Source: Verrucomicrobiota bacterium
GTDB taxonomy: Bacteria; Verrucomicrobiota; Verrucomicrobiia; Opitutales; Cerasicoccaceae
Direction of reading: 5' to 3'
Length of the DNA stretch: 64,000 nucleotides
Assembly (NCBI GenBank): GCA_039818205.1
Contig: JBCBUK010000007.1
Coordinates: 193,675-257,674 of the forward strand
The position numbers and the translations under genes are program-made. This document shows positions 25,447-44,514 of this stretch, piece after piece (position 1 is the stretch's first letter; every line of letters starts with the position of its first letter). The notes beneath the pieces were generated by a model. The model saw only the letters and a program-made list of their open reading frames with translations, was not told the DNA's origin and made no database searches.

Positions 25447-25647
25447 ATGAATCCATTCAAAAACATATGGGCCGTCTTCTTCTGCATGATGGCAACGACG
25501 TTTGCCCAAGTAACCACATCGGACCTAAGCGCGGTTGAAACCGCCGTGGGCGATGTCGAAACCATCTGGGGAACAATCGCTACGATCATCATCGGCGTTG
25601 CTGCCGTGATGGTGGGTAAGAAGTTCCTCCGAAGGGCAGGCTCCTAA
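25447..25647 (+). CDS. Filamentous-phage (inovirus) major coat protein-like
   Basis: 20-aa signal peptide (..ATTFA|) and a 46-aa mature chain with an acidic amphipathic N-part, hydrophobic TM (IWGTIATIIIGVAAVMVG) and basic tail (KKFLRR). Confidence 0.8.
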   Translation: MNPFKNIWAVFFCMMATTFAQVTTSDLSAVETAVGDVETIWGTIATIIIGVAAVMVGKKFLRRAGS

Positions 25648-25655
25648 ATCAACAC

Positions 25656-25688
25656 AGGGGCGGGCCATAAACCCGCCCCTTTTATTTT
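25656..25688 (+). terminator. Intrinsic terminator after the coat gene
   Basis: AGGGGCGGG-CCATAAA-CCCGCCCCT followed by TTTATTTT. Confidence 0.85.
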
Positions 25689-25785
25689 CGACTCGCGATG
25701 CGCGATGGAAATTGGTCTAACTTGGTTAGTGTGTGCCACCGGCGTGTTTCATTATGCAAATACTCGATAATCTAACTTCCGAGAA

Positions 25786-25802
25786 AAGAGATCAAGTCTC
25801 AC
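25786..25802. promoter_or_regulatory. 17-bp palindromic operator (putative iron/Fur-type box)
   Basis: AAGAGATCAAGTCTCAC, upstream of the Fe3+ ABC operon. Confidence 0.5.
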
Positions 25803-26017
25803 CATAAAGGCGTTGAATTTGAGAATGAAATTGCTCCCAAGTCGAAAACGCCTGCGGCCCAAATCGAAATTATCTATTGTTGTAAACCCTAGAAAAATAA
25901 CGATTTGCGTGAATCAAAAATACCAAAACTGAGAAAGAACCTAATTAGTCCTCCGAAAAGCAACCGCTATCACTACACATTCTATTATTTCGTCAAACGA
26001 TTGCTAGTCCAATTACA

Positions 26018-26046: not shown

Positions 26047-26195
26047 AAGTCACAGTATCGAGACCACCGTAACAAAAATTTAACCAAAAATTTTCGATTC
26101 GGTATCGGGCTTTGGACGATCTTCCGAGACTGATTGATCATACGACCCCTCTAGCAAACAAATCTCTGAACACTTTTATATTGAGCGCGCCTACG

Positions 26196-27206
26196 ATGAA
26201 ACGAAGCAGTATCTCCCTTGTAATATTTGGTCTAATAGGATTTTCACTATCCTTAGATGCGCTGACGGTTTACAGCTTCCGACATTATCCAGCCGACGAT
26301 GCTTTGTTTGAAAAATTCACCGAGCAAACTGGCATTCCGGTAGAGGTTGTTAAAGCCAAAGCGGGAGCGCTCTTGGAACGCCTAGAAGCAGAAGGTGATC
26401 AGTCACCGGCGGACATTCTGATTACCTCTGACGCAGCCCGCCTGCACATAGCGACTGAGAAAGGTCTTTTGCAACCAATCGACTCACCGATCCTTAAAGA
26501 GCGGATTCCTCCTTACCTGCGTGACCCGAACGACAACTGGTTCGGTTTTACACAGCGAGCTCGAGTCTTCGTATACAATCCGGAATCTGTTTCTAGTAAA
26601 GACCTGACGACCTATGAAGATCTCGCCAATCCAGAGTGGCGAGGTCGGATTGTATGCCGTTCATCCTCTAACGTTTATAATCAGTCTTTGTTGGCATCAG
26701 TCATCGCAGCGGACGGAAAAGACGCTGCGATCAATTGGGCAAAAGGTGTAAGAAAGAACATGGCGCGCGCACCGCAGGGCAATGACCGGGACCAAATCCG
26801 CGCAGTAGCAAAGGGCTTAGCCGATCTCGCAATCGTGAACACCTACTACGTCGGTCTAATGTTGAATTCAGATGACCACAAAGACCGAAAAATCGCCCAA
26901 CGGCTAAAAATATTCTTCCCTAACCAGGCTAACCGCGGCACTCACATAAATATCAGCGGAGCAGGCATCACCAAAGCTTCGAAAAACATTGAGGATGCCA
27001 AAGCCTTTCTAGAATTTTTGGCATCCGATGAAGCCCAAAGCACATTCCCAAACGCAACTTACGAATATCCTGTAGTAAATGAGGTTGAGTGGTCCGAACA
27101 ACAAAAGGAGTGGGGCCAGTTTAAATCAGACACCCTATCACTAGACCTCCTAGGCGAGAATAACGCCAACGCGATTCGCGTATTCAACCTAGCGGGTTGG
27201 GAGTAA
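26196..27206 (+). CDS. fbpA: Fe(3+) ABC transporter substrate-binding protein (FbpA/FutA type)
   Basis: Signal peptide, VYSFRHY, RSSSNVYNQSL, GNDRDQI, NTYY iron-binding tyrosines, GTHINISGAG. Confidence 0.92.
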   Translation: MKRSSISLVIFGLIGFSLSLDALTVYSFRHYPADDALFEKFTEQTGIPVEVVKAKAGALLERLEAEGDQSPADILITSDAARLHIATEKGLLQPIDSPILKERIPPYLRDPNDNWFGFTQRARVFVYNPESVSSKDLTTYEDLANPEWRGRIVCRSSSNVYNQSLLASVIAADGKDAAINWAKGVRKNMARAPQGNDRDQIRAVAKGLADLAIVNTYYVGLMLNSDDHKDRKIAQRLKIFFPNQANRGTHINISGAGITKASKNIEDAKAFLEFLASDEAQSTFPNATYEYPVVNEVEWSEQQKEWGQFKSDTLSLDLLGENNANAIRVFNLAGWE

Positions 27207-27208
27207 AC

Positions 27209-28813
27209 GTGAATCGCCAATTGCAGCTGCGCCGAGCAGTTGACAGCTGGTCGATTAGCACGGTCGTCGTTTGTTTGGCGATCTTGACCCCGTTGGCAGT
27301 CATTTTCCTATCGGTTTTTAAGACAGCCCCCGACTGGCAGCACATCCAGTCTACTGTTCTCACCCTCTATATAGGCAATACACTCTTCCTAGTTTTCGCA
27401 GTAGGATTTGTCGCGTTTCTTTTCGCTGCACCGACTGCTTGGTTTGTGGTCTACTACGATTTCCCTGGCAAACGGTGGCTATCATGGGCCTTGGTCTTGC
27501 CCTTGGCGATTCCCACGTACGTCGCGGCCTTCACCTACTACGATTTATTAGACCACACGATACCCTTGATAGTTGCTGCAAGGAAAGCCTGGGGGTTTGA
27601 GGCCTCCCAAAGGTTGGAACAAATTCTTCGATACGGCTTGCTCGTCCTCCTGATGAGCAGTGTCCTCTACCCATACATCTTCTTTACTCTCCGGGCGTCA
27701 TTTATGCGCCAGCAAGCGGTTTTCCTAGAGGCAGGCCGTATGCTGGGCAAATCAACTGGCAGTATTTTCTGGCAGATCGCACTCCCCCTATCCAGACCAG
27801 CATTGGTGGCAGGCCTCGGCCTAGTGGCGATGGAAGTAATCAATGATTATGGCGCCGTCAATTTCTTTGGAGCTCCGACACTGACAGAAGGGATATTCCG
27901 AACTTGGTTCGGACTGGAGGATCAAGCATCGGCAATGCGCCTGGCCTTATCAATGACCGTGCTCGTCCTCATTTTGCTTGGATTTGAATTGTGGACCCGT
28001 CGACGGGTGCGCTTCGCGGCCGGAGAACTCGAAGGGCATAGCCTCATGCCAGTCCGAATTCGCGGGTACAAGGGTTGGCTGATTACATTCATATGTATTG
28101 TTCCTCTTTTCACAGGATTTCTTTTCCCTGTCTTCCGCCTGCTACATTGGGCCGTGCTTTCATTTGGAGATTTTGACTTTTCTACCATTGGCCCACAGAT
28201 AACCAAAAGCTTAATACTCGCGGCCACAACTACCGTTATACTCGGAGCTGTCGCATTACTATTCGCGTTTTGCGGACGAGTACACCCTAGTCTAAGTCTT
28301 CGCCGAATAATTCGTGTAGCAACCATAGGATATGCGATACCTGGTGCAGTCATTGCAGTCGGCGTTATGACCTTGTTCGGCACGGTCGACCAAATGGTTT
28401 CTCATCACATCCTTGGCGGAAGCCTATTTGCGCTTGGGTTCGCTTACCTCATTCGGTTCCTCACGATTGCATACCAACCACTTGATGCGGGGATGAATAG
28501 CGTTGGTCAAAGCCTTCTTGATGCATCGTTCATTCTAGGCAGGTCGAGAATTCAAACGCTTCTAAGAATACACCTCCCTTTGTTGATGCCAGTGCTGCTT
28601 GCGGCATCAATTCTCGTCTTTATCGATATCCTTAAAGAACTTCCGCTTACTTTGATCCTGCGGACAAGTGACTTTGAAACACTAGCAACCTATGCTTTCG
28701 GATTTGCAAAAGAGGGCGCAATCTATGATTGTTCCATACCGTCGCTTTGTATTATCTTGGCCGGCAGCGTTGGTTTGATTCTGGCCAATCGTTGGATGCG
28801 GCCTAGCACATAG
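27209..28813 (+). CDS. fbpB: Fe(3+) ABC transporter permease
   Basis: Duplicated BPD permease with LPLAIPTYV, LPLSRPA and ILKELPLTLILR motifs; GTG start. Confidence 0.92.
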   Translation: MNRQLQLRRAVDSWSISTVVVCLAILTPLAVIFLSVFKTAPDWQHIQSTVLTLYIGNTLFLVFAVGFVAFLFAAPTAWFVVYYDFPGKRWLSWALVLPLAIPTYVAAFTYYDLLDHTIPLIVAARKAWGFEASQRLEQILRYGLLVLLMSSVLYPYIFFTLRASFMRQQAVFLEAGRMLGKSTGSIFWQIALPLSRPALVAGLGLVAMEVINDYGAVNFFGAPTLTEGIFRTWFGLEDQASAMRLALSMTVLVLILLGFELWTRRRVRFAAGELEGHSLMPVRIRGYKGWLITFICIVPLFTGFLFPVFRLLHWAVLSFGDFDFSTIGPQITKSLILAATTTVILGAVALLFAFCGRVHPSLSLRRIIRVATIGYAIPGAVIAVGVMTLFGTVDQMVSHHILGGSLFALGFAYLIRFLTIAYQPLDAGMNSVGQSLLDASFILGRSRIQTLLRIHLPLLMPVLLAASILVFIDILKELPLTLILRTSDFETLATYAFGFAKEGAIYDCSIPSLCIILAGSVGLILANRWMRPST

Positions 28814-28814
28814 T

Positions 28815-29546
28815 ATGCTCGAGATAGCGAACATTCGTAAAGTCTACGAGAACGACAGCCATGCAGCCGTCGAGGATGTCTCGTTGGAGCTCCCAGCGGG
28901 CAAAATCATTACGCTGCTTGGTGAAAGCGGATGTGGTAAAACTACCCTGCTCCGAATGATCGCTGGACTCGCTGTTCCAAACGAAGGAGAAATTCGCTTG
29001 AACAACGAATTGATGGTCGGGCCATCGACTTGGGTCCCACCACAGAAGCGAAAAATCGGTATGGTCGCACAAGGCGGTGCTCTCTTTCCCCACATGACGG
29101 TTTTCAAAAACATCGCTTATGGACTCTCACATTTGAACAAAAATGAACGCCTGGACCGCATTCGCCAGAAGCTCGAGCTGGTCGGGCTAGCAGACAAACA
29201 ACATCGCTATCCCCATGAACTCTCGGGCGGCGAGCGCCAGCGTATTGCACTCATTCGTGCCCTAGCCCCTAGCCCACGATTGATCTTATTGGACGAGCCA
29301 TTCAGCAACCTAGACACGACGCGAAAGAAACTCTTGCGAACTGAAGTTCGGTCCATCCTAAAGCGAGAGAATATGACTGCGATCCTCGTTTCTCACGATC
29401 CACAAGACGCACGACACTTCGGCGATCTTATCGCTATCATGCGCTCCGGAAGAATTAGTCAAAGCGGAACAAAAGAAGAGATCATCAGCCATCCATGCAA
29501 TGAATATTGCTCCGAACTAATCGGTGAGATCGGTAAAGACTCTTAA
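28815..29546 (+). CDS. fbpC: Fe(3+) ABC transporter ATP-binding protein
   Basis: GESGCGKT, LSGGERQR and LLDEPFSNLD; short form with no obvious C-terminal TOBE domain. Confidence 0.9.
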   Translation: MLEIANIRKVYENDSHAAVEDVSLELPAGKIITLLGESGCGKTTLLRMIAGLAVPNEGEIRLNNELMVGPSTWVPPQKRKIGMVAQGGALFPHMTVFKNIAYGLSHLNKNERLDRIRQKLELVGLADKQHRYPHELSGGERQRIALIRALAPSPRLILLDEPFSNLDTTRKKLLRTEVRSILKRENMTAILVSHDPQDARHFGDLIAIMRSGRISQSGTKEEIISHPCNEYCSELIGEIGKDS

Positions 29547-29748: not shown

Positions 29749-30423
29749 TTATCGACGCATACGGCGCATCAAGAGAAGTCCACTGGCAACACCAAAGATA
29801 AGCGCATAAGTCGAGGGTTCTGGAATGACAGTTCCTTCGAATGCGTTTCCGCTATCAAGTTGCATCGCGAAACTCGCAGAATGGGCGATCGAATCCCATT
29901 CTATGGTAAAGTCAGAAATCGTTACGCCAATAGCAGAGAGATCCCACTGATATGCATTAATCGTGGAGGGGCTTCCGCCAAAAGCGAAATTTCCAGACAT
30001 ATTTTCTGAAATATCTGCAGCGAGCTCTTGCGCTCCACCATTATAGCTCAATGTCGGGCCACCAGAAATCGCGCCGACCATATCAATCTGAAAAACGACT
30101 GTTTCGAGACCTGAGATTGGAGAAGACGCACTAATGAAGAACGAACCAGGAGTGTCGAAATTATAGATCGAAGTCGAAGCCGGGTATCCACCGCCCCCAG
30201 CAACCTTGTCAAACGTGACAGATCCGACGTCCGCGGAAATTGGAGTGCTCCATCCAGCCGTGTTCGTAAAGAAGCTATTGTAGCCCGATGAGGTAGGATA
30301 GTTTGATGAGTTCAGATCCTCCCAGCTTGACCGTTGTGAAAGTCCGGGGAGAGCTACGTTTAAGACTCCAAAACTGGGCGTGAGACCGGCCAGTAGTGCC
30401 GTGAGAATGAGTTCTTTTTTCAT
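29749..30423 (-). CDS. PEP-CTERM sorting domain protein
   Basis: Signal peptide; C-terminal IPEPSTYALIFGVASGLLLMRRMRR. Confidence 0.92.
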   Translation of the reverse strand: MKKELILTALLAGLTPSFGVLNVALPGLSQRSSWEDLNSSNYPTSSGYNSFFTNTAGWSTPISADVGSVTFDKVAGGGGYPASTSIYNFDTPGSFFISASSPISGLETVVFQIDMVGAISGGPTLSYNGGAQELAADISENMSGNFAFGGSPSTINAYQWDLSAIGVTISDFTIEWDSIAHSASFAMQLDSGNAFEGTVIPEPSTYALIFGVASGLLLMRRMRR

Positions 30424-30607: not shown

Positions 30608-31063
30608 ATGAACTCCCTCCCTATTGACATTATTTATGGAACCGTTACCGGAAATGCCCAAGATCTAGCCGAAAAACTGTCTGATCGATGCGATCAAATC
30701 TCAATACCATGCACGCTGACTGCCGCGGAGGACTGGGACAATGAGCGCTTTAAACAACCAAATCGGAGAACCGTATTGATATTCTCAACCTGGGGTGATG
30801 GCGAGCCGCCTGACGACGCGATTGAATTCTGCGAGAACATCTACGACAAGAAAGTCGATGTGCACCAGCTCCAGTATGTTGTGGTCGCTCTTGGCGACAG
30901 CGCCTACGATGATTTTTGCGGATGCGGTCGGCGGCTCGATGAGTCCTTAAGTGCTGCTGGCGCAACCAAGATCATGGACCGAGTAGAGCTCGATGTCGAT
31001 TTCGATGATGATTTCGACGCCTGGATGGAAAACTTTCTGAACGGCGCAACCGCACCCTGCTAA
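30608..31063 (+). CDS. Flavodoxin (short-chain, MioC/CysJ-N-like)
   Basis: YGTVTGNA, STWGDGEPPD and LGDSAYDDFCG FMN-binding motifs. Confidence 0.92.
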   Translation: MNSLPIDIIYGTVTGNAQDLAEKLSDRCDQISIPCTLTAAEDWDNERFKQPNRRTVLIFSTWGDGEPPDDAIEFCENIYDKKVDVHQLQYVVVALGDSAYDDFCGCGRRLDESLSAAGATKIMDRVELDVDFDDDFDAWMENFLNGATAPC

Positions 31064-31082
31064 AACTATCCTCACTACCACA

Positions 31083-32039
31083 ATGAAGAAAGATCCTTTA
31101 TCATCTAAGAAAAAGAACTGCGGTTCGGTGCCAGAACAGTGCCCTTGCTGCAAAAGCACTCAACTCGAGGTCGAACGGGCATGCGAACTGCAGCCTCAGT
31201 TTAACGAAATCCTTGGCGACCTTTCAAAGCTTGGGTTGCTACTCTGCTTCGCCCGTAACCGAAGTTGCAGTATTGGTGTCGCCGGATGCGTTCCCGACCT
31301 ACTGACCGACAAAACATCCTCAGCTGGTTGCAACTACGATATGAACCTACACCTGAACACGCCCGCCTGGCAATACGCCTACTCAGTGCATGAACGGAAT
31401 AGCAATGGGGGTTCTTTCATCGGCATGGAGTTTTTCGACAAGAATCACAATGGCCTATTTCGCATAGCACTAACGCCTGATTCCGAGGTACAAGAATTCC
31501 AGAACATCACTCGAAACTACTATCGCCGCCCAGTCTCAGCAGAGGAGATCGGCACCTGGAGGCGAATGGCAGAACTAACGCCTTTGAACGAGGCGAACCA
31601 CACACCTATCAGCGAGAGCTTTATACAAAAAGACTCTTGGAGTGCGCCGCTCGTGAGTTCCGAACGACAGGAAACGAACGATGAAATGGGCTTTAGCGGC
31701 CACCTACCGCTCTGCCGCACAGCGCTCGCCGAAGCGCTCAACGACAACGCGGAGTTAGTTCTTACTGTTGCTGGCGGCTTCGGGCGCGTATGCACAACCT
31801 TTGCCCCGAAAGTCTTGGAAGATGCTCAGCGAGGTTGGCTATTTGCCGGCGGAGACGGCCGAATGCTACGCTTTAATCCGTGTGCAGTTGCGACCTATTG
31901 GATCGGGAAGCATGAAACCCCAAAAGAGTCTTACAGCTACCTAGAAGCAGTCGATTGCTTTGGTGACTTGATTCTAAGAATCACGTCCTACAACCCCGAC
32001 AGCCATCGGAATTGGCAAGCACTTGCCTCTGCATTCTAG
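31083..32039 (+). CDS. Divergent HemS/ChuS/ChuX-like heme-utilisation protein
   Basis: Two repeated domains with the HemS-like pattern (LGLLLCFARN...NLHLN...WQYAYSVHE...MEFFD...LFRIALTPDS) in an iron context. Confidence 0.6.
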   Translation: MKKDPLSSKKKNCGSVPEQCPCCKSTQLEVERACELQPQFNEILGDLSKLGLLLCFARNRSCSIGVAGCVPDLLTDKTSSAGCNYDMNLHLNTPAWQYAYSVHERNSNGGSFIGMEFFDKNHNGLFRIALTPDSEVQEFQNITRNYYRRPVSAEEIGTWRRMAELTPLNEANHTPISESFIQKDSWSAPLVSSERQETNDEMGFSGHLPLCRTALAEALNDNAELVLTVAGGFGRVCTTFAPKVLEDAQRGWLFAGGDGRMLRFNPCAVATYWIGKHETPKESYSYLEAVDCFGDLILRITSYNPDSHRNWQALASAF

Positions 32040-32132: not shown

Positions 32133-32603
32133 CTAGCGGTTGCAACTACAACCGATCCTTATCTGTTCGAATCGAGCACGGATATGGACTGAGATTTCGG
32201 CGTCTTCATGGCTGCGGTTAGGATGAAGATATCGCCGACGCAACTCTCGGCAGGAATCTTCTACAGGAATCGTTTCTCCGCAATCCTCGCAAAAAATATA
32301 GACCCTCGCACTGGATCTAATAACTACTTCATACAGTTGTTTTTTTTCAATTCCAACAACACGACGAATCAACTTACATTCCTCAAGAAGAGATAGTGTG
32401 CGATAGATGGATGTAATGGAAATCGAGCGATCCTCAGAACGAACGACTTCGAACAACTCTCGAGCATTGAACGCTCTATCGTAGACAAAGAGTGATCTTA
32501 CAATCAATCGCCGGGCACTCGAAACCTTGTGACCGGAAACCCTAATCGTGTTCTCGAAATGCTCGAGAACATCAGAATGATCAATGTCATAGGATTCGTC
32601 CAT
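32133..32603 (-). CDS. Fur-family transcriptional regulator, degenerate metal site
   Basis: Fur winged helix (ISITSIYRTLSLLEECKLI) and CEDCG retained; the His-rich motif is absent. Confidence 0.82.
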   Translation of the reverse strand: MDESYDIDHSDVLEHFENTIRVSGHKVSSARRLIVRSLFVYDRAFNARELFEVVRSEDRSISITSIYRTLSLLEECKLIRRVVGIEKKQLYEVVIRSSARVYIFCEDCGETIPVEDSCRELRRRYLHPNRSHEDAEISVHIRARFEQIRIGCSCNR

Positions 32604-32972: not shown

Positions 32973-33021
32973 TCTCACGGAAAACCTGTGTTGCCCGCAA
33001 AAATTCTAAATAATATAAACC

Positions 33022-33792
33022 ATGACTACCAAACCACAAAACAAGCGCTACAAGTCGCACAAGGGTCTTACTCTTGTTGAGCTACTCGTAGTTCTCGTAG
33101 TACTCGTCGCTACAGGCGGTCTGCTCGTTCCAACTATTAACAACGCTTTGTCACGTAGCCACGTCGCTACCTGCGCAACTTCTTTCCCTGAAGTTCATCA
33201 GATGATGCAACGAGTTCAGATCGAAGCCGGCCAATTCGGAACTGACTTCGATTCAGGCCTGGACACTGCAGACACCACCACTCCTGTTAACTCGGTGCCA
33301 TTCGCAGGTGCAACTCTTCAAGCTGTTGCATTGACTGCCGCCGAAGCTGATGCGCTGGCTGCAGTCGGTATCACTACCGTCGTTGATCACGACGCAACTG
33401 CCGCTGACTACAACGTCACCTTCAATATCGGCTCAACACAACGGACACTTGGTGACGGCGAAGAAGTCATCACTTTGACCGACGCCCAAGCTGACGGAGT
33501 ATTCCTCCCAAGCGCTGGTGCAGAGAAGTACATCTGGCTCGGCATTGGCCGCGACTGGTCGCTGCTCAGCACTTTGGCTCCAGAACCACCAGTTCACTTC
33601 GGTGACACACCAGGTTCTTTGCCAGACGAAGTTCACTCTCGTTTCGGTATCATCATGCAAGTAGCAGACGAAGCTGGTGACGCTCTCGAAGCAGCTGAGT
33701 TCAAGCGTATCAGCTACTGCATCGACGGTGACGGTTTCGAAACTGGCGACAACCACATCGAAGTCTACTGGCAAGAGATTGCCCAGAACTAG
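33022..33792 (+). CDS. Type IV prepilin-like protein (candidate major pilin)
   Basis: Class III signal KSHKG|LTLVELLVVL with E5. Confidence 0.9.
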   Translation: MTTKPQNKRYKSHKGLTLVELLVVLVVLVATGGLLVPTINNALSRSHVATCATSFPEVHQMMQRVQIEAGQFGTDFDSGLDTADTTTPVNSVPFAGATLQAVALTAAEADALAAVGITTVVDHDATAADYNVTFNIGSTQRTLGDGEEVITLTDAQADGVFLPSAGAEKYIWLGIGRDWSLLSTLAPEPPVHFGDTPGSLPDEVHSRFGIIMQVADEAGDALEAAEFKRISYCIDGDGFETGDNHIEVYWQEIAQN

Positions 33793-33828
33793 TTTCTTGC
33801 TAGTTACAGACCGTCAAATGTTTAAGAC

Positions 33829-33859
33829 GGGGCGCATCGAGCAACTCTCGATGCGTCCC
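33829..33859 (+). terminator. Intra-operon hairpin after the first pilin
   Basis: GGGGCGCATCGAG-CAACT-CTCGATGCGTCCC followed by TTCTCCATTTTT. Confidence 0.65.
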
Positions 33860-33885
33860 TTCTCCATTTTTAAGATTCAAATACG

Positions 33886-34644: not shown

Positions 34645-34702
34645 AGCATTTTGATAGTTTCTTGGGTAAGCTCTCTCATCCTTCTCTGTGCACAGTTCCA
34701 CT

Positions 34703-35314: not shown

Positions 35315-35348
35315 CCGAGTGCCCTACTCTTCGAAAACAAAGCCTCCT

Positions 35349-36315: not shown

Positions 36316-37713
36316 ATGGCTAATCCATTTTCAAATCGTCCGGCGAAAACAGTCTTAGTGGATACGGGGCACGGCTACTTTCGGGTAGATCTAGGCCAGA
36401 AAGCAGGTCGCTTTCAAGTTCTCCGTGTCATTACTAACGGCGATTCATCTGAATCAGCCCGTTCAGACGATTTCTTTGAAGATGCGTTAGCCGTTGACGA
36501 CGGAGCTTGGATTACCGCCCTTCTGCAACTAAAGCCAAAGCCGGCTGCGGCAGTTAAAGTGCTCAGCGCGAAGGTCGCGGCGGCTGTGATGGAAATGCCT
36601 TACCTCAGTGGAGAAAGCGAGGGGGAATCGGTTTCGATGGAGCTTGAGAGCCTAACAGGCTTGAGCACTGTTGAATCACAATGGACTTGGAAACGGCTCC
36701 CCAGCGAAGAGGGCTTATTGAGAGCATGGGCAATCCAAGCTTCATTTGAACAGCTAATGGCTTGGCGTAACGTAGTCGGCTCAGTTCGCGGATGCCACTT
36801 GGCAGCGGTCTGCCACCCCGGCGGGATACAGTTAGGAACTGTTTCACAGCTAGAGCTTTGGCCCGGTTTAGCCCTCTATCAGCAGACCGACACCAATGCA
36901 CGCAATCTCCAGGGTTGGTCAGGAGAAGGCTCCAGCATCTCGGCTGTGGCCGATGTCTCAGTAGGCGACTCAATTTCTCGAGGTAACCTACTTTTACTAC
37001 TTCCCAATGGAGAAATTCCCGCTGAGGCAAGTGATTGTGCTACGATACGGTTGGATGAGGAAGCAGGTCGCCTAAAATGGGCTGAACATCTCGCCGAAGC
37101 ATTGGACCCTTTGAGTAAATCTCTCGAAGCGCTTCCGCGGCTCGTGATTCCCAAACCCGAGATGTCCAATCGCGAGTTGGCTCTCGTAACCGCGGGAGTA
37201 ACGGGTGCCGCAGTTCTTCTTGCAGTAGCACACTTCGCTTTCGTTAAGACATCCAGTAAAAACCTCGAGCAACAAGTTGCTTCAATGAGACTGCCTGTGG
37301 AAGAGGTTCGGGATGGCGAGAAAAAGATCAATGACCTTAAGCGAGAGCTTAGAAGGTTACAGGGCAAAAGAAGCGACGAACCGTTTGATGTAAGCGCTCA
37401 TCGCTCTCGGATGGCAAGTCTATTGCATCTTCTAGCCCATGCAGTCAATGAGGAGGTAGTCATGCAAGGTATCGAAAGCCGCGGCTTGGATATAATGGTT
37501 TCCGGAGTCTCGGCATCGTCACAAGGGCCCGCCAACTATGTCCGCTCCTTAAACCAATTTGTCACCGATACTGGATGGCGTGCAACGCTTGCTGGTCGTG
37601 ATGCGACTCTTGTATTTCCAGATGGTGGCCCGTGGACGTTTACTGTGGAGCTCTCACCGGCGAACGATAGCCTAGCGAGCGCCCAGGCAAACCAAGGGAG
37701 GACTCAACCTTGA
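36316..37713 (+). CDS. GspL / PilM-PilN-like assembly platform protein
   Basis: Large cytoplasmic region, single TM, coiled coil and a PilN-like C-terminal domain; operon position. Confidence 0.65.
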   Translation: MANPFSNRPAKTVLVDTGHGYFRVDLGQKAGRFQVLRVITNGDSSESARSDDFFEDALAVDDGAWITALLQLKPKPAAAVKVLSAKVAAAVMEMPYLSGESEGESVSMELESLTGLSTVESQWTWKRLPSEEGLLRAWAIQASFEQLMAWRNVVGSVRGCHLAAVCHPGGIQLGTVSQLELWPGLALYQQTDTNARNLQGWSGEGSSISAVADVSVGDSISRGNLLLLLPNGEIPAEASDCATIRLDEEAGRLKWAEHLAEALDPLSKSLEALPRLVIPKPEMSNRELALVTAGVTGAAVLLAVAHFAFVKTSSKNLEQQVASMRLPVEEVRDGEKKINDLKRELRRLQGKRSDEPFDVSAHRSRMASLLHLLAHAVNEEVVMQGIESRGLDIMVSGVSASSQGPANYVRSLNQFVTDTGWRATLAGRDATLVFPDGGPWTFTVELSPANDSLASAQANQGRTQP

Positions 37714-38279
37714 ATAGTTTATCCAAGAGAGATCGCCTTTTGCTCACAGTATTACCCGCCGCAGTACTGCTGTTAATTTATGGCTTTTTCATTTCGAAGC
37801 CTGCCATGAATGAATTGAAGGAACTACAGCGCCAAGCTGATGCTCTCCAAACACGCATGCCTCCTCAAGCCGAGCGAGCCAGAGTCCGCCAGGAACAGGT
37901 TAAGTTGAATTCGCAGGTTCAGAAGCTCAAAAAAAACAATGGCTCAGGTTCGGGTACACCGGCACTGGTACCAACTTCTGATGCAACGATGCGTGCCGAT
38001 GCTTTATTCGAGGCACTACTTGAGCAACATCGAGTTATCTTGATGAGCGAGGCGATAGCGGAAACTAACGATACACGTGCCTTTCGTCGAATCACCGACA
38101 ATAGTCCAGGCACCACCCTCTGGAAAATTGAACTTGCTGGCAATTACGCCAATGTTGCCCATTTGCTCGCCGCTCTCGGAGAGACTCATCTTCCCATAAC
38201 GCCGGTTGCACTAGAGATGGATGCCAGCCTTCAAACAAAATCCGATCTTCGTCGGTGGTATCTCTGGAGTTACCGATAA
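37710..38279 (+). CDS. GspM / PilO / MshJ-like protein
   Basis: LSKRDRLLL start, TM, coiled coil, IELAGNYANVAHLLAAL motif. Confidence 0.7.
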   Translation: MNSLSKRDRLLLTVLPAAVLLLIYGFFISKPAMNELKELQRQADALQTRMPPQAERARVRQEQVKLNSQVQKLKKNNGSGSGTPALVPTSDATMRADALFEALLEQHRVILMSEAIAETNDTRAFRRITDNSPGTTLWKIELAGNYANVAHLLAALGETHLPITPVALEMDASLQTKSDLRRWYLWSYR

Positions 38280-39451
38280 TGGAAGATACAGAAGTAAAAG
38301 CATCGCAACGGCTCTTAAATGAGATGCTACAAGCGTTGGTTGAGCATGACGCCTCAGACCTGCACTTAGCTCCAGACCATTCGCCACTTTTTAGAATCGA
38401 TGGTCGATTGCGAACAGAAGAACCATTCCTTGCTCGGCTTAACAGTAACCAGCTCCAGTCGATCGCATCTCAGTTAATTGGTGATAACGTATCTGATGCG
38501 ATTCCTCCCTCGGGGTCTATCGATGGCGCGATGAGCTTAGGAGCGGACAAACGCTTCCGATATAACGTATATAATCGACTACCGGGTATTGCTATTGCGA
38601 TACGTCGATTAGAGAGCCGCTTTCGCAGCCTAGAGGAACTCGGGCTACCCCAAACGCTTACCAACTGGTGTGATCTGAGTGATGGCTTAATCCTAGTTGC
38701 TGGCCCCACTGGCTCGGGCAAAAGCACGACTCTGGCAACGCTTATTGATCAAATCAATCGAACGCGCTCGACCCATATTATTACGATCGAAGATCCAGTT
38801 GAATATCTCCACCTCTCGCAAAAGAGTCGAATTGATCAGCGACAGGTGGGGACTCATACACCCGATTTTCATTCAGCGCTCATATCCAGCCTTCGGCAAG
38901 ACCCAGACGTCATTCTAGTTGGCGAGATTCGTGAAAGAGAAACGATTCGGACTGCGTTGACCGCGGCTGAAACCGGACACTTGGTGTTTGCGACGGTTCA
39001 TGCTCCAGACTGTGCCGGGGCAATTCAACGAATTTCTTCTGCATTTCCCGCCGATGAACAATCCGGAGTTCTACGGCAACTAAGCATGAACCTACGCGGT
39101 GTCCTGACACAGCACCTTGTGCCGTCGGACGGCCCGGTAACAACTAGACCCCAGCCTAACCTGGGTAAACGTCCACGGGTTGCCTTGAGCGAAGTTCTTC
39201 AAGTAACACCTGCTGCAGCTAACCTCATTGCCCGCGGCCAGTTCCACAATCTCTATTCATTTATGGAGACTGGTGCGAAACATGGAATGCAAACTCTGGA
39301 AGAGTGCCTTCTCCAATGGGTAAGAACTGGGTTTTTGCAGCGATCAACCGCACTCGCTTGCACGCGAAATCCGAGAATCCTGGAGCAGCGCATGGCCAGA
39401 GAATTGGGAGCCTCCCATTCATCAACTGCTAACGCACGCCTACGCCGATAG
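38279..39451 (+). CDS. pilT: PilT/PilU family retraction ATPase
   Basis: ASDLHL, GPTGSGKST, HIITIEDPVEY, LRQDPDVILVGEIRE, AAETGHLVFATVH, AAANLIAR (AIRNLIRE-like), GMQTLE. Confidence 0.9.
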   Translation: MEDTEVKASQRLLNEMLQALVEHDASDLHLAPDHSPLFRIDGRLRTEEPFLARLNSNQLQSIASQLIGDNVSDAIPPSGSIDGAMSLGADKRFRYNVYNRLPGIAIAIRRLESRFRSLEELGLPQTLTNWCDLSDGLILVAGPTGSGKSTTLATLIDQINRTRSTHIITIEDPVEYLHLSQKSRIDQRQVGTHTPDFHSALISSLRQDPDVILVGEIRERETIRTALTAAETGHLVFATVHAPDCAGAIQRISSAFPADEQSGVLRQLSMNLRGVLTQHLVPSDGPVTTRPQPNLGKRPRVALSEVLQVTPAAANLIARGQFHNLYSFMETGAKHGMQTLEECLLQWVRTGFLQRSTALACTRNPRILEQRMARELGASHSSTANARLRR

Positions 39452-39467: not shown

Positions 39468-41042
39468 ATGTCTTCCGCCGAAAACCTCAAAACCGATACC
39501 AGAGTCTCTGCGCAGGAAACGCTCAGCGAGGCAGCGGCATTGGACCTTGAGGAGATCAAATTTGATCCGCGTTGGGCGCTGCAAACCCCGCCCAGCCTCA
39601 TGATCCGCCGGCGTTTACTTCCTCTTGTCGAGTTGGAAGGGAAACTACATGTGGCCGTCGAGAAGTCACTCGACCCGACCTCCGAAAAACTTTTGCAGCG
39701 GTTGACGGGTCTGCCTCTCGTTCCAGTTGTTGCTACCGGAGATTCAATCCGAGCTCTGCAAACCAGGCTCTTTGGGAACCTTCGAAACGCGAGTCGGCAA
39801 GATCGCCCGATCATCGATACGTCTTCGACGCGCGTGGAGGTCCGTGACGGCAACGCGGAAGAAGCAGTAACGGTTTGCGATCAACTACTGAAGACCGGCT
39901 TAATCCGTGGAGCATCGGATATTCATTTCAACGTACAACGAGATGGTTCAGTCCAAGTTCGGCTCCGCATCGACGGCGTACTCACTGAGGAGCTTGTGCT
40001 ACCGGAAGGTTTACGTCTAGCACTGTTCAATCGCTTGAAAGTTCTTGGCGGTCTGGATATCTCAGAAAAACGTGCGTCCCAAGACGGATCCTTTGCCTTT
40101 GAACCTGGCGGTGTTTTGCCCCGTGCGGAAGTACGTATGGCCACAATTCCTGCGAGGCATGGAGAACGCATTACACTGCGTTTACTCATGCGGGAAGACA
40201 GTGGCCTAACTCTAGACAGTTTGGGGTTCTCGGAACAGCACCGTGATCAATTTTCTCGCGCGATTAGTCTTTCCCACGGAATGATCCTACTCACGGGACC
40301 AACTGGAAGCGGTAAAAGCACAACTCTTTATGCCGCGATCAAGCATCTGCTTGCGCAGAAAATGGTTAATGTGATGACTGTAGAGGACCCCGTCGAATAC
40401 GAGATCGATGGGGCAACACAAACCGAAGTTGACGCGCGTCGAGAAAAGGTTTCATTCGCGTCATCCTTGCGTAGTATTCTGCGGCACGACCCAGATGTAG
40501 TAATGCTGGGAGAGATACGAGACCGTGAAACCGCGGAGCTAGCGGTTCGTGCAGCGCTTACGGGTCACCTAGTATTGAGCACTCTGCACACAAACACCGC
40601 CGTAGGCGCGGTTACTCGCTTGATTGATCTAGGAATCGATCGCTTCCTGATTGGCACCATTCTCCGATTGGTTGCTGCTCAGCGACTCGTGCGCGTTCTC
40701 TGTCCGCAATGCCGAATCAAAGACAGTATCGCAGATTCCGAGGCAGCACTTTTGCATCAGCCCGCTCTTCAAGGAGAACCTTGTTGGCGTCCAAAAGGAT
40801 GCTTACACTGTGCCAGCCGGGGATTCGTTGGCCGTTCTGGCCTATTCGAAGTTTTCCCAATCGGTTTGGAGGAATCTCGCCTAATCGGCAACGCATCAAA
40901 TGCCGATTCGATTGAATCGAAACTAGTTGAACTGCGGGATGCAAACAAGAACCCATCGCTGATGTCCGATGGCTTAAAGCGTGTTCAATCCGGACAAACG
41001 ACCATTCAAGAGGTGATTAACGCAACCTCGGACTTCGTGTAA
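39468..41042 (+). CDS. GspE/PilB family extension ATPase
   Basis: N-terminal T2SSE_N-like region, ASDIH, GPTGSGKSTTLY, TVEDPVEY, GEIRD, tetracysteine CPQC...CLHC. Confidence 0.93.
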   Translation: MSSAENLKTDTRVSAQETLSEAAALDLEEIKFDPRWALQTPPSLMIRRRLLPLVELEGKLHVAVEKSLDPTSEKLLQRLTGLPLVPVVATGDSIRALQTRLFGNLRNASRQDRPIIDTSSTRVEVRDGNAEEAVTVCDQLLKTGLIRGASDIHFNVQRDGSVQVRLRIDGVLTEELVLPEGLRLALFNRLKVLGGLDISEKRASQDGSFAFEPGGVLPRAEVRMATIPARHGERITLRLLMREDSGLTLDSLGFSEQHRDQFSRAISLSHGMILLTGPTGSGKSTTLYAAIKHLLAQKMVNVMTVEDPVEYEIDGATQTEVDARREKVSFASSLRSILRHDPDVVMLGEIRDRETAELAVRAALTGHLVLSTLHTNTAVGAVTRLIDLGIDRFLIGTILRLVAAQRLVRVLCPQCRIKDSIADSEAALLHQPALQGEPCWRPKGCLHCASRGFVGRSGLFEVFPIGLEESRLIGNASNADSIESKLVELRDANKNPSLMSDGLKRVQSGQTTIQEVINATSDFV

Positions 41043-41043
41043 G

Positions 41044-42273
41044 ATGGGGCAGTTTTTCCATACATCAAGCCTGCCCTCAGGTGAGCGTCGCCAAGGTGTT
41101 ATTGAAGCCGATACCTTGGACGCCGCGCGTTGGTCGCTGCTAGAACAGGGTTTGCGTCCAGAGAAGCTACAGCCAGCGGGTGCCAATCAAGTTGGACAGA
41201 GCGGCGCAGCATCATCATTCGAGCTCAACCGTGTTGATCCGCGCAATTGGGGCGGCGTAAAATCAGTCCATATCGAACTGACACTTCGGCAGCTATCGGT
41301 AATGCTTCGTAGTGGTTTAACGCTGTTGGCTGCAATTGATACGATCATTGAACTTCCGCCCTCGCGAGCAGTGCGTCGTACTTACGAACAAATTCGTGTT
41401 AAGCTCGAAGGTGGAAGCTCTCTGGCAGATGCGATCTCCGATGAGAAGGGCTTTCCTAAATCGGTTGTCGCGATGATCAGCCTTGGTGAAGAAAGTGGAA
41501 ACCTCGATATCGTAATGAGACGATCGGCCGAGGCGATGGAAAGCGTTCGCCGAAACCGCAACGCCATGATCACCGCCCTATTCTACCCGACCTTCACGTT
41601 GACCTTCGCAATTGGCATCTGCGTATATATGGTTATCGCAGTTATTCCGCCAATGAAGAGAGCCCTTCAAGCATTGGGTCGACCGTTACCCGGGATGACT
41701 CAGTCCCTGCTTGATTTGTCCGATTTCGTCAACACTTACGGACCGGCCATTCTTGCCATTGTTGTCGTCTCGATTCTGACCTTTATATTCATCTATCTTT
41801 GGCCACCCGGCCGGTTAGCTGTTGACCGCACTCTTTTGCGACTTCCGCTTGCCGGTACAATCCTAAGATGCGGAGGAACAGCGCTTTTCGCCCGTTCCAT
41901 GGCAACGCTATTAGAAAGCGGCATTCGGTTGGTCGAGGGCCTTCGCATTCTTACTGCAGTTCACGGGAACAAGCATTTTGCTGCGGTGGTAGACTCAGCC
42001 CGCAATCGCATACTTGAAGGTGGAACGCTCGCGGACAGTCTAGGCCGTGGCCGTGCATACACACCGATGATGGTTAAAATGGTCGGAGTCGGAGAGTCAT
42101 CCGGTAACCTAGAGGAAACTTTGGTCAATGTTGCCGACTTCCATGATGAACGACTGCAGACCCTAATTAAACAGCTTAGCGCCCTTATTGAGCCGATGAT
42201 CGTACTGTTAGTCGGCGGGCTGGTCGGTTACATATATATAGCCTTCTTCGTTGGCCTCTATGGAGCCATGTAA
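41044..42273 (+). CDS. GspF/PilC family inner-membrane platform protein
   Basis: Two T2SSF repeats (RQLSVMLRSG, GEESGNL, GESSGNL, LIEPMI). Confidence 0.93.
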   Translation: MGQFFHTSSLPSGERRQGVIEADTLDAARWSLLEQGLRPEKLQPAGANQVGQSGAASSFELNRVDPRNWGGVKSVHIELTLRQLSVMLRSGLTLLAAIDTIIELPPSRAVRRTYEQIRVKLEGGSSLADAISDEKGFPKSVVAMISLGEESGNLDIVMRRSAEAMESVRRNRNAMITALFYPTFTLTFAIGICVYMVIAVIPPMKRALQALGRPLPGMTQSLLDLSDFVNTYGPAILAIVVVSILTFIFIYLWPPGRLAVDRTLLRLPLAGTILRCGGTALFARSMATLLESGIRLVEGLRILTAVHGNKHFAAVVDSARNRILEGGTLADSLGRGRAYTPMMVKMVGVGESSGNLEETLVNVADFHDERLQTLIKQLSALIEPMIVLLVGGLVGYIYIAFFVGLYGAM

Positions 42274-42354
42274 AACCAATTTTTCATGAGACTACTGCAA
42301 ATCAAACTTCTGGTCCGTAATTCTGAGGATCTCGAGCGGCTATTCCTTTCTAAA

Positions 42355-44514
42355 ATGAAGATTCTGATCGCCCTGATGATGTTACTTGGCATCCAGTCTG
42401 GCCACGCCCAATTCGATGGGGCAAGGCTTCCCGATCCAACACGTCCGAATCCGGTAACTAAAGATCCATCTAGCCCGAATCCGATCACCAAAGAAGCTCT
42501 GGACGCTCTTCGCCGTTCTGGCAACAGTACATCAAGCAACGATGATAAAGAGGTAGATATCGACTACATCCTCGTCGGTTTAGTAATCGGTGGAGACGTG
42601 GATTCACAACGAGGTGTCGCCCTAATCGCGGTGGATGAGAAGCTATTCTTAGTTGGCGAAGGTCAAACAATTCGCAGTGGTGATCACGACATCACGGCTA
42701 CGCAGATCGATGGCGATTCGATTATCGTATTCGATAATAAGGCCAACGAGGCCCACGTCCTTCGGAAAAACGTGCTTGGATTACCCGATGAGGAGGGAAA
42801 GTTATCAATCGTTGAATTTGCCGGTATTCCACTACCGTTCGCAATGCAGGCGTTGTCCTATGTGACAAATCTTCACATTGCTGTCTCAAGCGAAGCGCGC
42901 GATACCGCAGTAACACTGTTTTTGCGAAATGTCACGCCTGAGGAGGCCTTGGAAACGCTAGTAGCGACCCATCAACTCTATTCTAGCCCGATCAACGGTT
43001 CAGATATTTTACGCCTCCAAACTGTCGAAGAGTTTGCTCGCGGATCAACTACTTTCAGGGAGGAACGAAGCCGCGTTTTCACTCTTCGCTTCCCTAATGC
43101 CCGCGACATTGCACTTTCCATACGAGACCTCTTCGGGGAGCGCGTTCGGCTATCAGAGCGCATTGATGAAAGCGAAGAACCCGGTGAGTTCTTGACGGAT
43201 GATCTAGAGCAACGACTGGAGCGTTTCGATATCATTGCTGGCCGTAGCCAGGGTCTTGGTACCACGAGTGATACAACTACAAATGGTTCCAATTTCACTT
43301 CTAATCGCCTTTCGTCATCATCCTTCAACAGCAATCAAACGCAAAACTTTCGTGATACCGGACGTCGCAATGATCAGTTCAACAATAGAAACCGCTTCGA
43401 TTTAACCGAAGAGGAACTCCGTTTATTGGGGACCGTGGACGCAACACGAATCGAAGCGATTCGCGACGCTCGAGCCGACATCTTCGTATCAGTGATTGAT
43501 CGCTTAAATAAGTTACTCATCCGCACTCGCGACGAGCATACTATGGAGGAAATTGCCGTTTTGATTGAGGAACTCGACCAGCCTGCGAAACTGGTATTTC
43601 TAGAAGTTCGCATCCTTCAAGTTCAATTGGACGATGGTCTTGATACCGCTTTTAATTGGTCATTCAATGCCGGTGGATTTAGCGGCAGTTTCTCACCCGG
43701 TAACCCAACTGTTAACGGAAACTTCGTGTTCAGTTATCTGAACGATACTTTTCGAGCCGATCTGCAATTGCTCCAAGATAGGGACAAACTCACGGTCTTG
43801 GGACAGCCTGCATTGATGACGGCAAACAATGAAGTTAGCCGAATTTTTATTGGTGAACAAGTCCCAGTACTCGTTGGTTTCGGCGACAACACGACTGTCG
43901 TTACCGACCTAGGGAACACCGTAAACTTTGCGAATGCAGAGTATGTAGATCAAGATGTGGGCTCTACGCTTCTAATAACGCCTAACATCAATGATGATGA
44001 CACCGTCGAACTGAGATTGCTACAAGAAGAATCTCAAATCGTTAGAAATGGAGCCAATATTCTGGTGCCAGATGGCGATGGAACCTTCGACGAGCGTGCC
44101 ATTGATATCGTCGCGGCCCAGACCGTTAGCGGAACATTCATTGCGGCAAACAATCGGACCTTCGCAATCGGTGGATTGATTCAAGAATCGATCGAAGACG
44201 AACGGTCTCAGATTCCCGTTCTTGGCGATCTACCGCTAATAGGGCGGGCGTTTCGCAACCAAGCAACCACCCGTACTCGAAACGAGATCATCCTGCTCAT
44301 CACCCCAAGTATTATAGAGAACCCGTCCCACGGTGAGACCCTAGCCCAAGACTACGTGGATAGGCATTCACTATATCCAGATACTGACATAAAAGGCGGA
44401 AATCTAGGCGTTTTCAACGAAGACGAGGTGCTTGTTCCTGGTGAGCCGGCAAACGACCCTCCAGAAGAAGCCCTCGATGCATTATTCCACGATCGCTTCG
44501 GACCACGCCGATAA
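42355..44514 (+). CDS. Secretin (GspD/PilQ/MshL family) with an N-terminal MshK/PilP-like domain
   Basis: Signal peptide from ATG 42355; secretin motifs VFLEVRILQV, VGSTLLITPNIN, IPVLGDLPLIGRAF, EIILLITPSII. Confidence 0.92.
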   Translation: MKILIALMMLLGIQSGHAQFDGARLPDPTRPNPVTKDPSSPNPITKEALDALRRSGNSTSSNDDKEVDIDYILVGLVIGGDVDSQRGVALIAVDEKLFLVGEGQTIRSGDHDITATQIDGDSIIVFDNKANEAHVLRKNVLGLPDEEGKLSIVEFAGIPLPFAMQALSYVTNLHIAVSSEARDTAVTLFLRNVTPEEALETLVATHQLYSSPINGSDILRLQTVEEFARGSTTFREERSRVFTLRFPNARDIALSIRDLFGERVRLSERIDESEEPGEFLTDDLEQRLERFDIIAGRSQGLGTTSDTTTNGSNFTSNRLSSSSFNSNQTQNFRDTGRRNDQFNNRNRFDLTEEELRLLGTVDATRIEAIRDARADIFVSVIDRLNKLLIRTRDEHTMEEIAVLIEELDQPAKLVFLEVRILQVQLDDGLDTAFNWSFNAGGFSGSFSPGNPTVNGNFVFSYLNDTFRADLQLLQDRDKLTVLGQPALMTANNEVSRIFIGEQVPVLVGFGDNTTVVTDLGNTVNFANAEYVDQDVGSTLLITPNINDDDTVELRLLQEESQIVRNGANILVPDGDGTFDERAIDIVAAQTVSGTFIAANNRTFAIGGLIQESIEDERSQIPVLGDLPLIGRAFRNQATTRTRNEIILLITPSIIENPSHGETLAQDYVDRHSLYPDTDIKGGNLGVFNEDEVLVPGEPANDPPEEALDALFHDRFGPRR

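What the first reader, a model, noticed from the sequence alone, without database searches (positions are those of the whole stretch)
25447..44514. Coat protein without a pI/Zot morphogenesis module; a type IV filament machine occupies the cargo instead
Seen: after the coat-gene terminator there is no pIII-like adsorption protein, pVI or pI/Zot ATPase anywhere between the att sites. The same element encodes two secretion ATPases, a platform protein and a secretin. Known: inoviruses need pI to assemble, some use a host secretin (CTXphi uses EpsD), and many use retractile type IV pili as receptors. Three inferences, most conservative first: (a) a defective prophage whose morphogenesis genes were replaced by cargo; (b) a satellite that supplies its own coat and borrows pI from a helper; (c) speculatively, an element that exports coated ssDNA through, or provides a receptor via, its own type IV filament system. 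The intact coat ORF with its signal peptide and terminator is a hint of selection favouring (b) or (c).
Basis: inference. Interest (0 to 1): 0.75.

Follow-up and report, generated by a model that had tools for sequence, protein, structure and literature searches.

The report
Truncated filamentous prophage carrying iron-pilus cassette
A filamentous prophage in a marine verrucomicrobium is cut off just after its coat gene and joined to about 19 kb of ordinary bacterial iron-uptake and pilus genes; the pilus machine likely serves the host's iron response, not phage export, and a sister prophage in the same genome keeps the missing assembly genes.

Summary
Observation confirmed. A 24.6-kb island at tRNA-Thr holds integrase, Rep, SSB-like and coat genes, no pIII/pVI/pI, then iron-uptake genes and a full type IV filament (T4F) operon. 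The same genome has a sister prophage whose coat end is 92% identical and runs on into pIII-pVI-pI; the match stops five codons into pIII, which marks a truncation. The two closest cores elsewhere are complete inoviruses. Of 50 scorable related Rep loci, 26 have pI, 23 show neither coat nor pI, and one is coat-only (also broken in pIII); none has a T4F operon. The same T4F operon occurs in four other genomes with no phage gene nearby. In 3 of 4 testable genomes it has the palindrome found before iron genes, so it is likely an iron-regulated host cassette. Coat terminator and signal peptide are standard parts, not signs of special selection. Packaging by the sister (b) stays open: att sites, integrase, Rep and a candidate origin are intact. 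Export through the T4F (c) has no support. Earlier scan notes describe other decayed members of this element family in this genome, not this arrangement.

The parts
20885..20960 (+). tRNA-Thr(TGT), integration target
   Evidence: ARAGORN
20911..20962 (+). attL core (52 nt)
   Evidence: 100% direct repeat with 45469-45520
21099..22229 (+). tyrosine integrase, full length
   Evidence: phrog_1 E 4e-29; 76% and 60% identical to sister integrases at tRNA-Lys (C2) and tRNA-Thr CGT (C16)
22226..22726 (-). conserved family-specific ORF (166 aa)
   Evidence: homologues in C45, C16, C42, L041, L045; no Pfam
22727..23002 (-). Arc-like repressor (likely)
   Evidence: phrog_3180 weak, E 0.015; 76% to L041
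23153..23398 (+). excisionase-like regulator (likely)
   Evidence: phrog_66 weak, E 0.02; 87% to L041
23406..23609 (+). small CxxCxGxG zinc-finger ORF
   Evidence: PF00684 below cut-off; 41% to L041
23962..24924 (+). rolling-circle Rep (PF23343), intact
   Evidence: invariant H129-W-H131, Y171, Y175 in 19-sequence alignment; dN/dS 0.11 vs L041
24872..25372 (+). SSB-like protein (likely OB fold)
   Evidence: position; all-beta model pLDDT 64; top Foldseek rows mostly OB/SSB folds but none at E<=0.001
25377..25407 (+). conserved non-coding motif CTTG-N-T-N-N-ACCT-N-TCGTAA-Y-TGACGC; candidate plus-strand origin
   Evidence: same place in L041, L042 and a C26 remnant; CTTG-ATA core resembles the pC194 origin (PMC5031790); function untested
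25447..25647 (+). major coat protein (pVIII-like) with signal-peptide-like N-terminus
   Evidence: PF05356 above cut-off; residues 30-66 identical to C35 coat
25656..25680 (+). intrinsic terminator after coat
   Evidence: shared with complete sister C35
25699..25712 (+). stub of pIII start; truncation breakpoint
   Evidence: similarity to C35 ends at 25712; a Logan loose end at 25712 continues into the C35 pIII sequence
26112..29546 (+). ABC transporter (SBP, permease, ATPase), likely Fe3+ FbpABC/FutABC type
   Evidence: PF13343, PF00528, PF00005; iron specificity inferred from context and recalled sequence likeness
29749..30423 (-). PEP-CTERM surface protein
   Evidence: TIGR02595 above cut-off
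30608..32039 (+). flavodoxin and HemS/ChuX-family gene
   Evidence: PF00258, PF05171; pair conserved in 7 of 7 relatives fetched
32133..32603 (-). Fur-family regulator
   Evidence: PF01475
32927..32945 (+). TGAGA-N5-TCTCA-like palindrome before the pilin operon (candidate iron box)
   Evidence: score reached by 1.1% of 1200 background upstream regions; related sites at 25787, 26024, 30457, 30485, 30537
33022..36314 (+). four pilins/pseudopilins
   Evidence: PF07963 in all four
36316..38279 (+). PilM/N-like and PilO/GspM-like assembly proteins (likely)
   Evidence: PF04612 weak for 37710-38279; 36316-37713 no family, labelled by position; syntenic orthologues
38255..39451 (+). PilT-family retraction ATPase
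   Evidence: TIGR01420 363 bits vs cut-off 319
39468..41042 (+). PilB/GspE extension ATPase
   Evidence: PF00437 + MshEN
41044..42273 (+). PilC/GspF platform
   Evidence: PF00482
42286..44514 (+). secretin
   Evidence: PF00263 + STN
44631..44730 (.). insertion-sequence end remnant
   Evidence: 81-86% to IS-adjacent stretches on C16, C26, C38; IS3-family label recalled from the transposase motif
44906..45343 (+). orphan SMI1/KNR4-like gene
   Evidence: PF09346 below cut-off, E 0.0025
45469..45520 (+). attR core

Best explanation
This is a tRNA-integrated filamentous prophage cut five codons into pIII and joined to a 19-kb block of bacterial iron-uptake and type IV filament genes; it likely persists as a passive genomic island kept for that cargo, which is likely switched on by iron shortage, and it cannot build virions alone. 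Steps. Shown: the left 4.8 kb is the regulatory, replication and coat half of a family of inoviruses whose complete members continue pIII-pVI-pI; the break lies at 25712; the T4F operon exists elsewhere with no phage context. Inferred: a deletion or recombination (an IS end lies at 44631-44730) replaced pIII-pI and older cargo with the host-type block; a Fur-family protein represses the ABC transporter, flavodoxin-HemS and pilin promoters through the TGAGA-N5-TCTCA palindrome; the T4F builds a retractile pilus or pseudopilus from its own four pilins using the host prepilin peptidase on C4; the coat gene is intact because the break is recent or the core is refreshed by recombination with sister copies.
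For: Window 25533-25712 is 91.7% identical to the end of C35, which continues into a 605-aa pIII-like ORF, a small pVI-like ORF and a 388-aa Zot with its Walker A. The two closest cores (Rep 71% and 54%) are complete: coat, pIII, pI; both IMG/VR relatives are complete too. Survey: 101 Rep hits, 84 distinct, 50 scorable: 26 with pI, 23 with neither coat nor pI, 1 coat-only, and that one also ends in a 67-aa pIII-like stub with no T4F. No secretin hit in any Rep locus. The operon is syntenic in G008, G116, G281, G702 (PilB 52-82% identical) with no Rep, coat or pI profile hit in the flanks fetched; G116 and G702 have neither Zot nor this Rep family genome-wide. A matrix trained only on flavodoxin upstream sites of six relatives scores the pilin upstream regions of G000, G008 and G116 in the top 1.1%, <0.1% and 0.5% of background. 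The genome holds other deletion products: C42 pI lacks its first ~27 residues including Walker A, C45 has Rep without SSB/coat. Degraded inoviruses that keep cargo are described in Vibrio (PMC12715192, section 9 read).
Against: Nothing in the mobility half is visibly decayed: att cores are identical, integrase, Rep, SSB-like and coat ORFs are full length, and a candidate origin is retained, so 'passive' is not shown. Coat differences to C35 are 4 synonymous, 0 non-synonymous in 37 codons. The coat profile missed 5 of 26 pI-bearing loci (one, L042, has a coat by eye), so coat-only elements may be undercounted; 8 of the 23 'neither' loci were scored by profile only. The palindrome seed was chosen by eye from this window, background came from G000 only, and G702 shows no such site directly before its pilins. 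Iron regulation and the substrate of the ABC system are untested.
Confidence: 0.68

Rival explanations
1. Helper-dependent satellite: the element excises, replicates as a 24.6-kb circle from its own origin with its own Rep and SSB, and is packaged with its own or the sister's near-identical coat through the sister's pIII, pVI and pI, so spreading the iron/T4F cassette.
For: Intact att, integrase, excisionase-like gene, Rep, SSB-like gene, coat and candidate origin; a sister with an identical mature-coat C-terminus and intact pI in the same genome; the sister itself carries at least 8 kb of cargo after pI; RS1 and TLC are packaged by helper inoviruses (PMC3545932 passages); the T4F operon is patchy (3 of 400 in an order sample), as mobile cargo would be.
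Against: Coat-without-pI is 1 of 50 and that case looks decayed; RS1 and TLC are 3-5 kb and RS1 borrows the capsid; Vibrio inovirus cargo averages 1.9 kb against 19 kb here; no sequence shared between right ends of family members that could be a packaging signal; the other four copies of the operon are not on such elements.
Confidence: 0.22
2. The element exports coat-wrapped ssDNA through its own T4F machine, which replaces pI.
For: Only co-location inside one pair of att sites. Some inoviruses leave through a host type IV pilus secretin (PMC2212043 passages).
Against: pI is an FtsK-HerA ATPase and the only conserved inovirus marker (PMC6813254 section 6), not a PilB/PilT-type ATPase; the coat has no N-methyl pilin motif while the operon has four pilins of its own; the meningococcal phage needs its pI and the secretin but not piliation; the earlier claim that a pilus island is a filamentous phage (VPIphi) was shown incorrect; the operon stands alone in four genomes, two without Zot or Rep; zero of 50 related loci pair it with a Rep.
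Confidence: 0.03
3. Side use (not exclusive of the best reading): the island's secretin or pilus serves as exit pore or receptor for the complete sister phage, which has no secretin gene of its own after pI.
For: No secretin homologue found on C35; PilT makes the filament likely retractile; secretin borrowing is known.
Against: The genome has three other secretin-like loci and several other PilB/PilT homologues; complete relatives occur in genomes where this secretin was not found (G005, G013).
Confidence: 0.08
4. Assembly chimera: the collapsed repeat core joined the wrong contigs.
For: Sister cores are collapsed: C2, C16 and C35 end in sequence like the window's, and variant contigs pile up over 22209-25519.
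Against: attL and attR on the two sides are the same tRNA-Thr(TGT) sequence; one Logan contig spans coat to cargo with no differences; C35 and the window diverge in sequence before the break, so they are two real copies.
Confidence: 0.03

Closest known systems
Integrase-bearing inovirus prophages (Inoviridae/Tubulavirales; Roux et al. 2019, PMC6813254, section 6 and passages read)
   Same: Rep, SSB-like and single-TM coat genes in the usual order; terminator after the coat; att-flanked at a tRNA
   Different: No pI, pIII or pVI in this copy; 19 kb of long bacterial genes; 24.6 kb in all
Degraded CTX-I inoviruses that keep their cargo region (PMC12715192, section 9 read; its Supplementary Fig. 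6 not seen)
   Same: phage relic that has lost core genes and keeps accessory DNA between the structural module and the att end
   Different: own tyrosine integrase instead of XerC/D; cargo ten times larger and metabolic/surface rather than mainly defence
RS1 and TLC satellite filamentous phages of Vibrio cholerae (PMC3545932, passages read)
   Same: replication and regulatory genes without morphogenesis genes, with a complete helper in the same genome
   Different: 3-5 kb against 24.6 kb; RS1 has no coat gene; packaging shown for them, untested here. The 23 coat-less, pI-less Rep elements found in relatives fit RS1 better than this element does
VPI/TCP island and the withdrawn VPIphi idea (PMC3545932, passages read)
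   Same: att-flanked island with integrase and a type IV pilus operon, in a host with filamentous phages
   Different: VPI has no inovirus Rep or coat; VPI was shown not to be a phage genome
Meningococcal MDA phage (PMC2212043, passages read)
   Same: shows how an inovirus and a type IV pilus secretin can be linked
   Different: MDA encodes and needs its own pI, and does not need piliation

Membership tests
Inovirus (complete prophage) | pI/Zot morphogenesis ATPase in the element | tested here: not met
   Zot only on C35 and C42
Inovirus (complete prophage) | short single-TM major coat protein | tested here: met
   PF05356 above cut-off
Inovirus (complete prophage) | rolling-circle Rep and ssDNA-binding protein | tested here: met
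   Rep PF23343; SSB weaker: OB-like fold rows without E<=0.001
Inovirus (complete prophage) | pIII and pVI minor coat genes | tested here: not met
   only a 14-nt stub of the pIII start
Inovirus (complete prophage) | release of filamentous ssDNA particles | not testable with these tools
   needs culture
Inovirus satellite (RS1/TLC type) | own replication genes, no morphogenesis genes | tested here: met
Inovirus satellite (RS1/TLC type) | co-resident helper with intact pI | tested here: met
   C35 pI 388 aa with Walker A; the helper's core is collapsed in the assembly, so its activity is unknown
Inovirus satellite (RS1/TLC type) | recurrent, conserved helper-dependent design | tested here: not met
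   coat-only in 1 of 50 scorable loci, without this cargo
Inovirus satellite (RS1/TLC type) | packaging signal and packaging by the helper | not testable with these tools
   no shared right-end sequence found; packaging needs culture
Type IV filament system (T4aP/T2SS-like) | pilins with class III signal, extension ATPase, platform, secretin | tested here: met
Type IV filament system (T4aP/T2SS-like) | retraction ATPase PilT (pilus rather than T2SS) | tested here: met
   TIGR01420 above cut-off
Type IV filament system (T4aP/T2SS-like) | prepilin peptidase | tested here: met
   not in the element; one copy on C4
Fur-type iron regulon | shared operator before iron genes, bound by Fur, repressed by iron | tested here: inconclusive
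   palindrome scores high in 3 of 4 testable pilin upstream regions; binding and regulation untested

The most novel reading that the evidence does not exclude
A 24.6-kb inovirus satellite that keeps its own origin, Rep, SSB and coat, borrows pIII-pVI-pI from a near-identical sister prophage, and moves a complete iron-regulated uptake and retractile-pilus cassette between marine verrucomicrobia inside extra-long filaments.
Probability: 0.15. Interest if true: 0.7.

Novelty: new member of a known kind. Interest (0 to 1): 0.3.

Why it matters
As read here it is a cargo-swollen phage relic, a known outcome, in a host group whose inoviruses are little described (three paper searches, listed none on them). 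It matters modestly because it shows an inovirus integration module bracketing a 19-kb iron and pilus cassette, and points to an apparently iron-boxed type IV filament operon with a patchy spread in this phylum. If the sister phage packages it, filamentous phages would be moving far larger cargo than the 2 kb typical of Vibrio inoviruses, and the strain offers a direct test.

Tried and rejected
Single-protein scans of viral contigs, genome contigs with the secretin, metagenome contigs with the close-Rep alignment and GenBank phages found nothing; alignment A1 then gave 2, 14 and 59 loci. No RNA holder listed, so coat expression is unchecked. Contig depth on the cargo (about 20.5) equals the right flank (about 20) and is below the left flank (about 36); it is not a copy number and says nothing firm on excision. 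A hairpin origin upstream of Rep was not supported (z -1.4). A guessed Fur-box pattern gave 2 matches against 0.7 expected, 18 of 100 shuffles as good, and was dropped for the palindrome. The sigma-70 scan matched chance. I took 44631-44730 for a shared packaging signal at first; it is an IS end. Comparing right ends of five family members showed no shared motif. The coat alone finds no relative in 150 other genomes and two proteins in the large set, too few for a coat-based survey. A pI-secretin fusion suspected in L118 was not confirmed by Pfam. dS to other genomes was saturated for most genes, so dN/dS cannot date selection. No complex prediction was run because the report claims no binding.
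Full report
Observation. ARAGORN finds tRNA-Thr(TGT) at 20885-20960 and its 3' 52 nt recur exactly at 45469-45520, giving a 24.6-kb element. From the left it encodes a tyrosine integrase, a family-specific ORF, weak Arc-like and excisionase-like hits, a PF23343 Rep, an SSB-like ORF and a PF05356 coat protein with a terminator. The SSB label rests on position and a modest model whose best PDB rows are mostly OB folds, none at E<=0.001. Then come an ABC transporter, a PEP-CTERM protein, flavodoxin, a HemS-family gene, a Fur-family gene, four N-methyl pilins, two assembly proteins, PilT, PilB/GspE, PilC/GspF and a secretin, an IS end at 44631-44730 and a weak SMI1/KNR4 hit. No Zot or pIII-like gene lies inside. 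Named relatives of the Rep come from Ruficoccus, Cerasicoccus, Opitutaceae and Akkermansia records, so the host is a verrucomicrobium.

The sister in the same genome. The Zot family search of the whole genome finds C35 and C42. C35 begins inside a coat gene; its first 180 nt are 91.7% identical to window 25533-25712, covering the coat 3' part, the terminator and the first five codons of a 605-aa pIII-like ORF, after which the sequences part. C35 goes on to a pVI-like ORF and a 388-aa Zot with Walker A, then at least 8 kb of cargo that includes an RHS-repeat protein. Related integrases end contigs C2 (tRNA-Lys) and C16 (tRNA-Thr CGT), whose att copies lie on C26 and C21. In the one run that holds the stretch, variant contigs stack over 22209-25519 (summed depth 80-185 against about 21 on the cargo), a loose end at 25712 reads into the C35 pIII, and one 11,284-nt contig spans coat and cargo without differences. 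So several sister cores are collapsed in the assembly, and the coat-cargo join is real in that data set, which may be the source sample. Which integrase belongs to C35 is not resolved. The genome also holds other deletion products: C42 pI lacks about 27 N-terminal residues with the Walker A, C45 and C48 have Rep or a Rep piece with no coat hit.

Relatives. The Rep has matches in 20 of 150 related genomes. The two closest cores, L041 (Rep 71%, SSB 77%) and L042 (54%, 52%), continue through coat, pIII, pVI and Zot, as do both IMG/VR hits. I pooled the loci and scored them with home-made profiles. Of 101 Rep hits, 84 were distinct at 95%; 34 had under 6 kb downstream and no pI and were set aside; of the 50 left, 26 have pI (coat detected in 21), 23 show neither coat nor pI, and 1 has coat without pI. 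That one (L129/L141) has a Pfam-positive coat followed by a 67-aa pIII-like stub, host genes directly upstream and no T4F: an independent truncation. The coat profile has misses, and only 15 of the 23 were also read by eye. PilB, PilT, PilC and secretin queries hit three Rep loci (a lone PilT-like gene in two, PilC in one) and never a secretin.

The cargo. Close orthologues of the secretin occur in 3 of 400 genomes of an order sample and 2 of 400 of a phylum sample, four genomes in all. In each the operon is syntenic, and the Rep, coat and pI profiles find nothing in the flanks fetched (the G281 contig ends at the first pilin). G116 and G702 have neither Zot nor PF23343; in the single-contig G008 the nearest Rep and Zot lie about 220 kb away; G281 has Zot on another contig. 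The HemS-like gene is in 10 of 15 family members and 5 of 5 congeners, beside flavodoxin in all 7 regions fetched; in this genome its only copy is in the island. A TGAGA-N5-TCTCA-like palindrome clusters before the ABC operon, between the PEP-CTERM and flavodoxin genes, and before the pilins. A matrix trained on 8 sites upstream of flavodoxin in six relatives gave scores reached by 1.3% (ABC), 0% (flavodoxin), 1.1% (pilins here), 0% (G008 pilins) and 0.5% (G116 pilins) of 1200 background regions, against 20% and 89% for Rep and integrase. The seed was picked by eye from this window, and G702 lacks a site directly before its pilins. The simplest reading is one iron-responsive cassette that has nothing to do with the coat gene.

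Selection on the coat. Against C35 there are 4 synonymous and 0 non-synonymous differences in 37 codons; the six coat substitutions listed are all third positions by my count, with one 9-nt in-frame insertion. This shows constraint at some time, not after the break. The terminator is shared with C35, and a hairpin follows the coat in complete L042. What does keep the satellite idea alive is that att cores, integrase, Rep and SSB-like gene are whole, and a non-coding motif between SSB and coat is conserved in L041, L042 and a C26 remnant. Its CTTG-ATA-like core resembles the pC194 origin (PMC5031790, one passage; PMC7072734, passages), so it is a candidate plus-strand origin, untested.

Comparison with what is known. 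pI is an FtsK-HerA ATPase and the only conserved inovirus marker (PMC6813254, section 6 and passages), so this copy fails membership as a complete inovirus while working like the left half of one. RS1 and TLC are small helper-packaged satellites, and the claim that the TCP pilus island is itself a filamentous phage was shown incorrect (PMC3545932, passages). The meningococcal phage needs its pI and the PilQ secretin but not piliation (PMC2212043, passages). Degraded Vibrio inoviruses that keep their cargo are reported, with cargo near 1.9 kb (PMC12715192, section 9 and passages; the supplementary figure was not seen). PMC5714925 (passages) gave background on origins only. Searches (listings and abstract starts only) showed no paper on a coat-plus-T4F element or on these verrucomicrobial elements; the library omits most subscription papers.

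Verdict. Real observation; most likely a truncated inovirus prophage turned cargo island (0.68); helper-packaged satellite possible (0.22); T4F-driven ssDNA export unlikely (0.03). New member of a known kind; interest 0.3.

Noticed in passing
L044, L045, L048, L050-L053, L055-L060, L062, L064, L133, L136, L138-L140, L143, L166, L196: 23 of 50 scorable Rep loci show neither coat nor pI; 21 of the 23 have a tRNA gene in the fetched region, 12 have an SSB profile hit right after Rep, and those read by eye carry varied cargo (methylase, toxin-antitoxin and defence-like ORFs). They look like a widespread class of RS1-like satellites or integrative rolling-circle plasmids in Verrucomicrobiota. Possibly more interesting than the finding itself.
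   Followed up: partly
window 25787-26038, 30457-30551, 32929-32977; L082 1365-1765; L083 11319-11719; L111-L116 flavodoxin upstream: Palindrome TGAGA-N5-TCTCA, a candidate iron (Fur-type) operator in this family, also before a rare PilT-bearing type IV filament operon.
   Followed up: partly
window 25377-25407; L041 6750-6785; L042 14030-14060; L073 590-625: Conserved non-coding motif between SSB and coat, candidate rolling-circle origin.
   Followed up: partly
L069 (C35) 3-7707 and window 44906-45343: The complete sister carries a >1750-aa RHS-repeat protein after pI; the window ends with an orphan SMI1/KNR4-like gene, perhaps left from older RHS-type cargo.
   Followed up: no
L070 (C42) 1620-3217: A mirror-image deletion: regulatory genes joined straight to a pI lacking its Walker A, with Rep, SSB, coat and pIII gone.
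   Followed up: partly
L118 5262-6884; L148, L153, L176: Long pI-profile frames (540 aa in L118) with a beta-rich C-terminal extension that might be a fused secretin-like domain; Pfam finds only Zot in L118.
   Followed up: partly
L120 (G001:C13) 1482-2821: A congener has a related integrase, split over two frames, next to a tRNA-Thr(TGT) repeat that bounds a separate ~25-kb island with different cargo.
   Followed up: no
window 19312-20960: The NtrC-like gene beside tRNA-Thr here is not beside a tRNA in five relatives, where tRNA-Thr(TGT) follows an ABC ATPase gene in the four congeners fetched; this site has been rearranged.
   Followed up: partly
window 45521-55005: Lower-GC run of large secreted-protein genes right of attR, probably an older island.
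   Followed up: no
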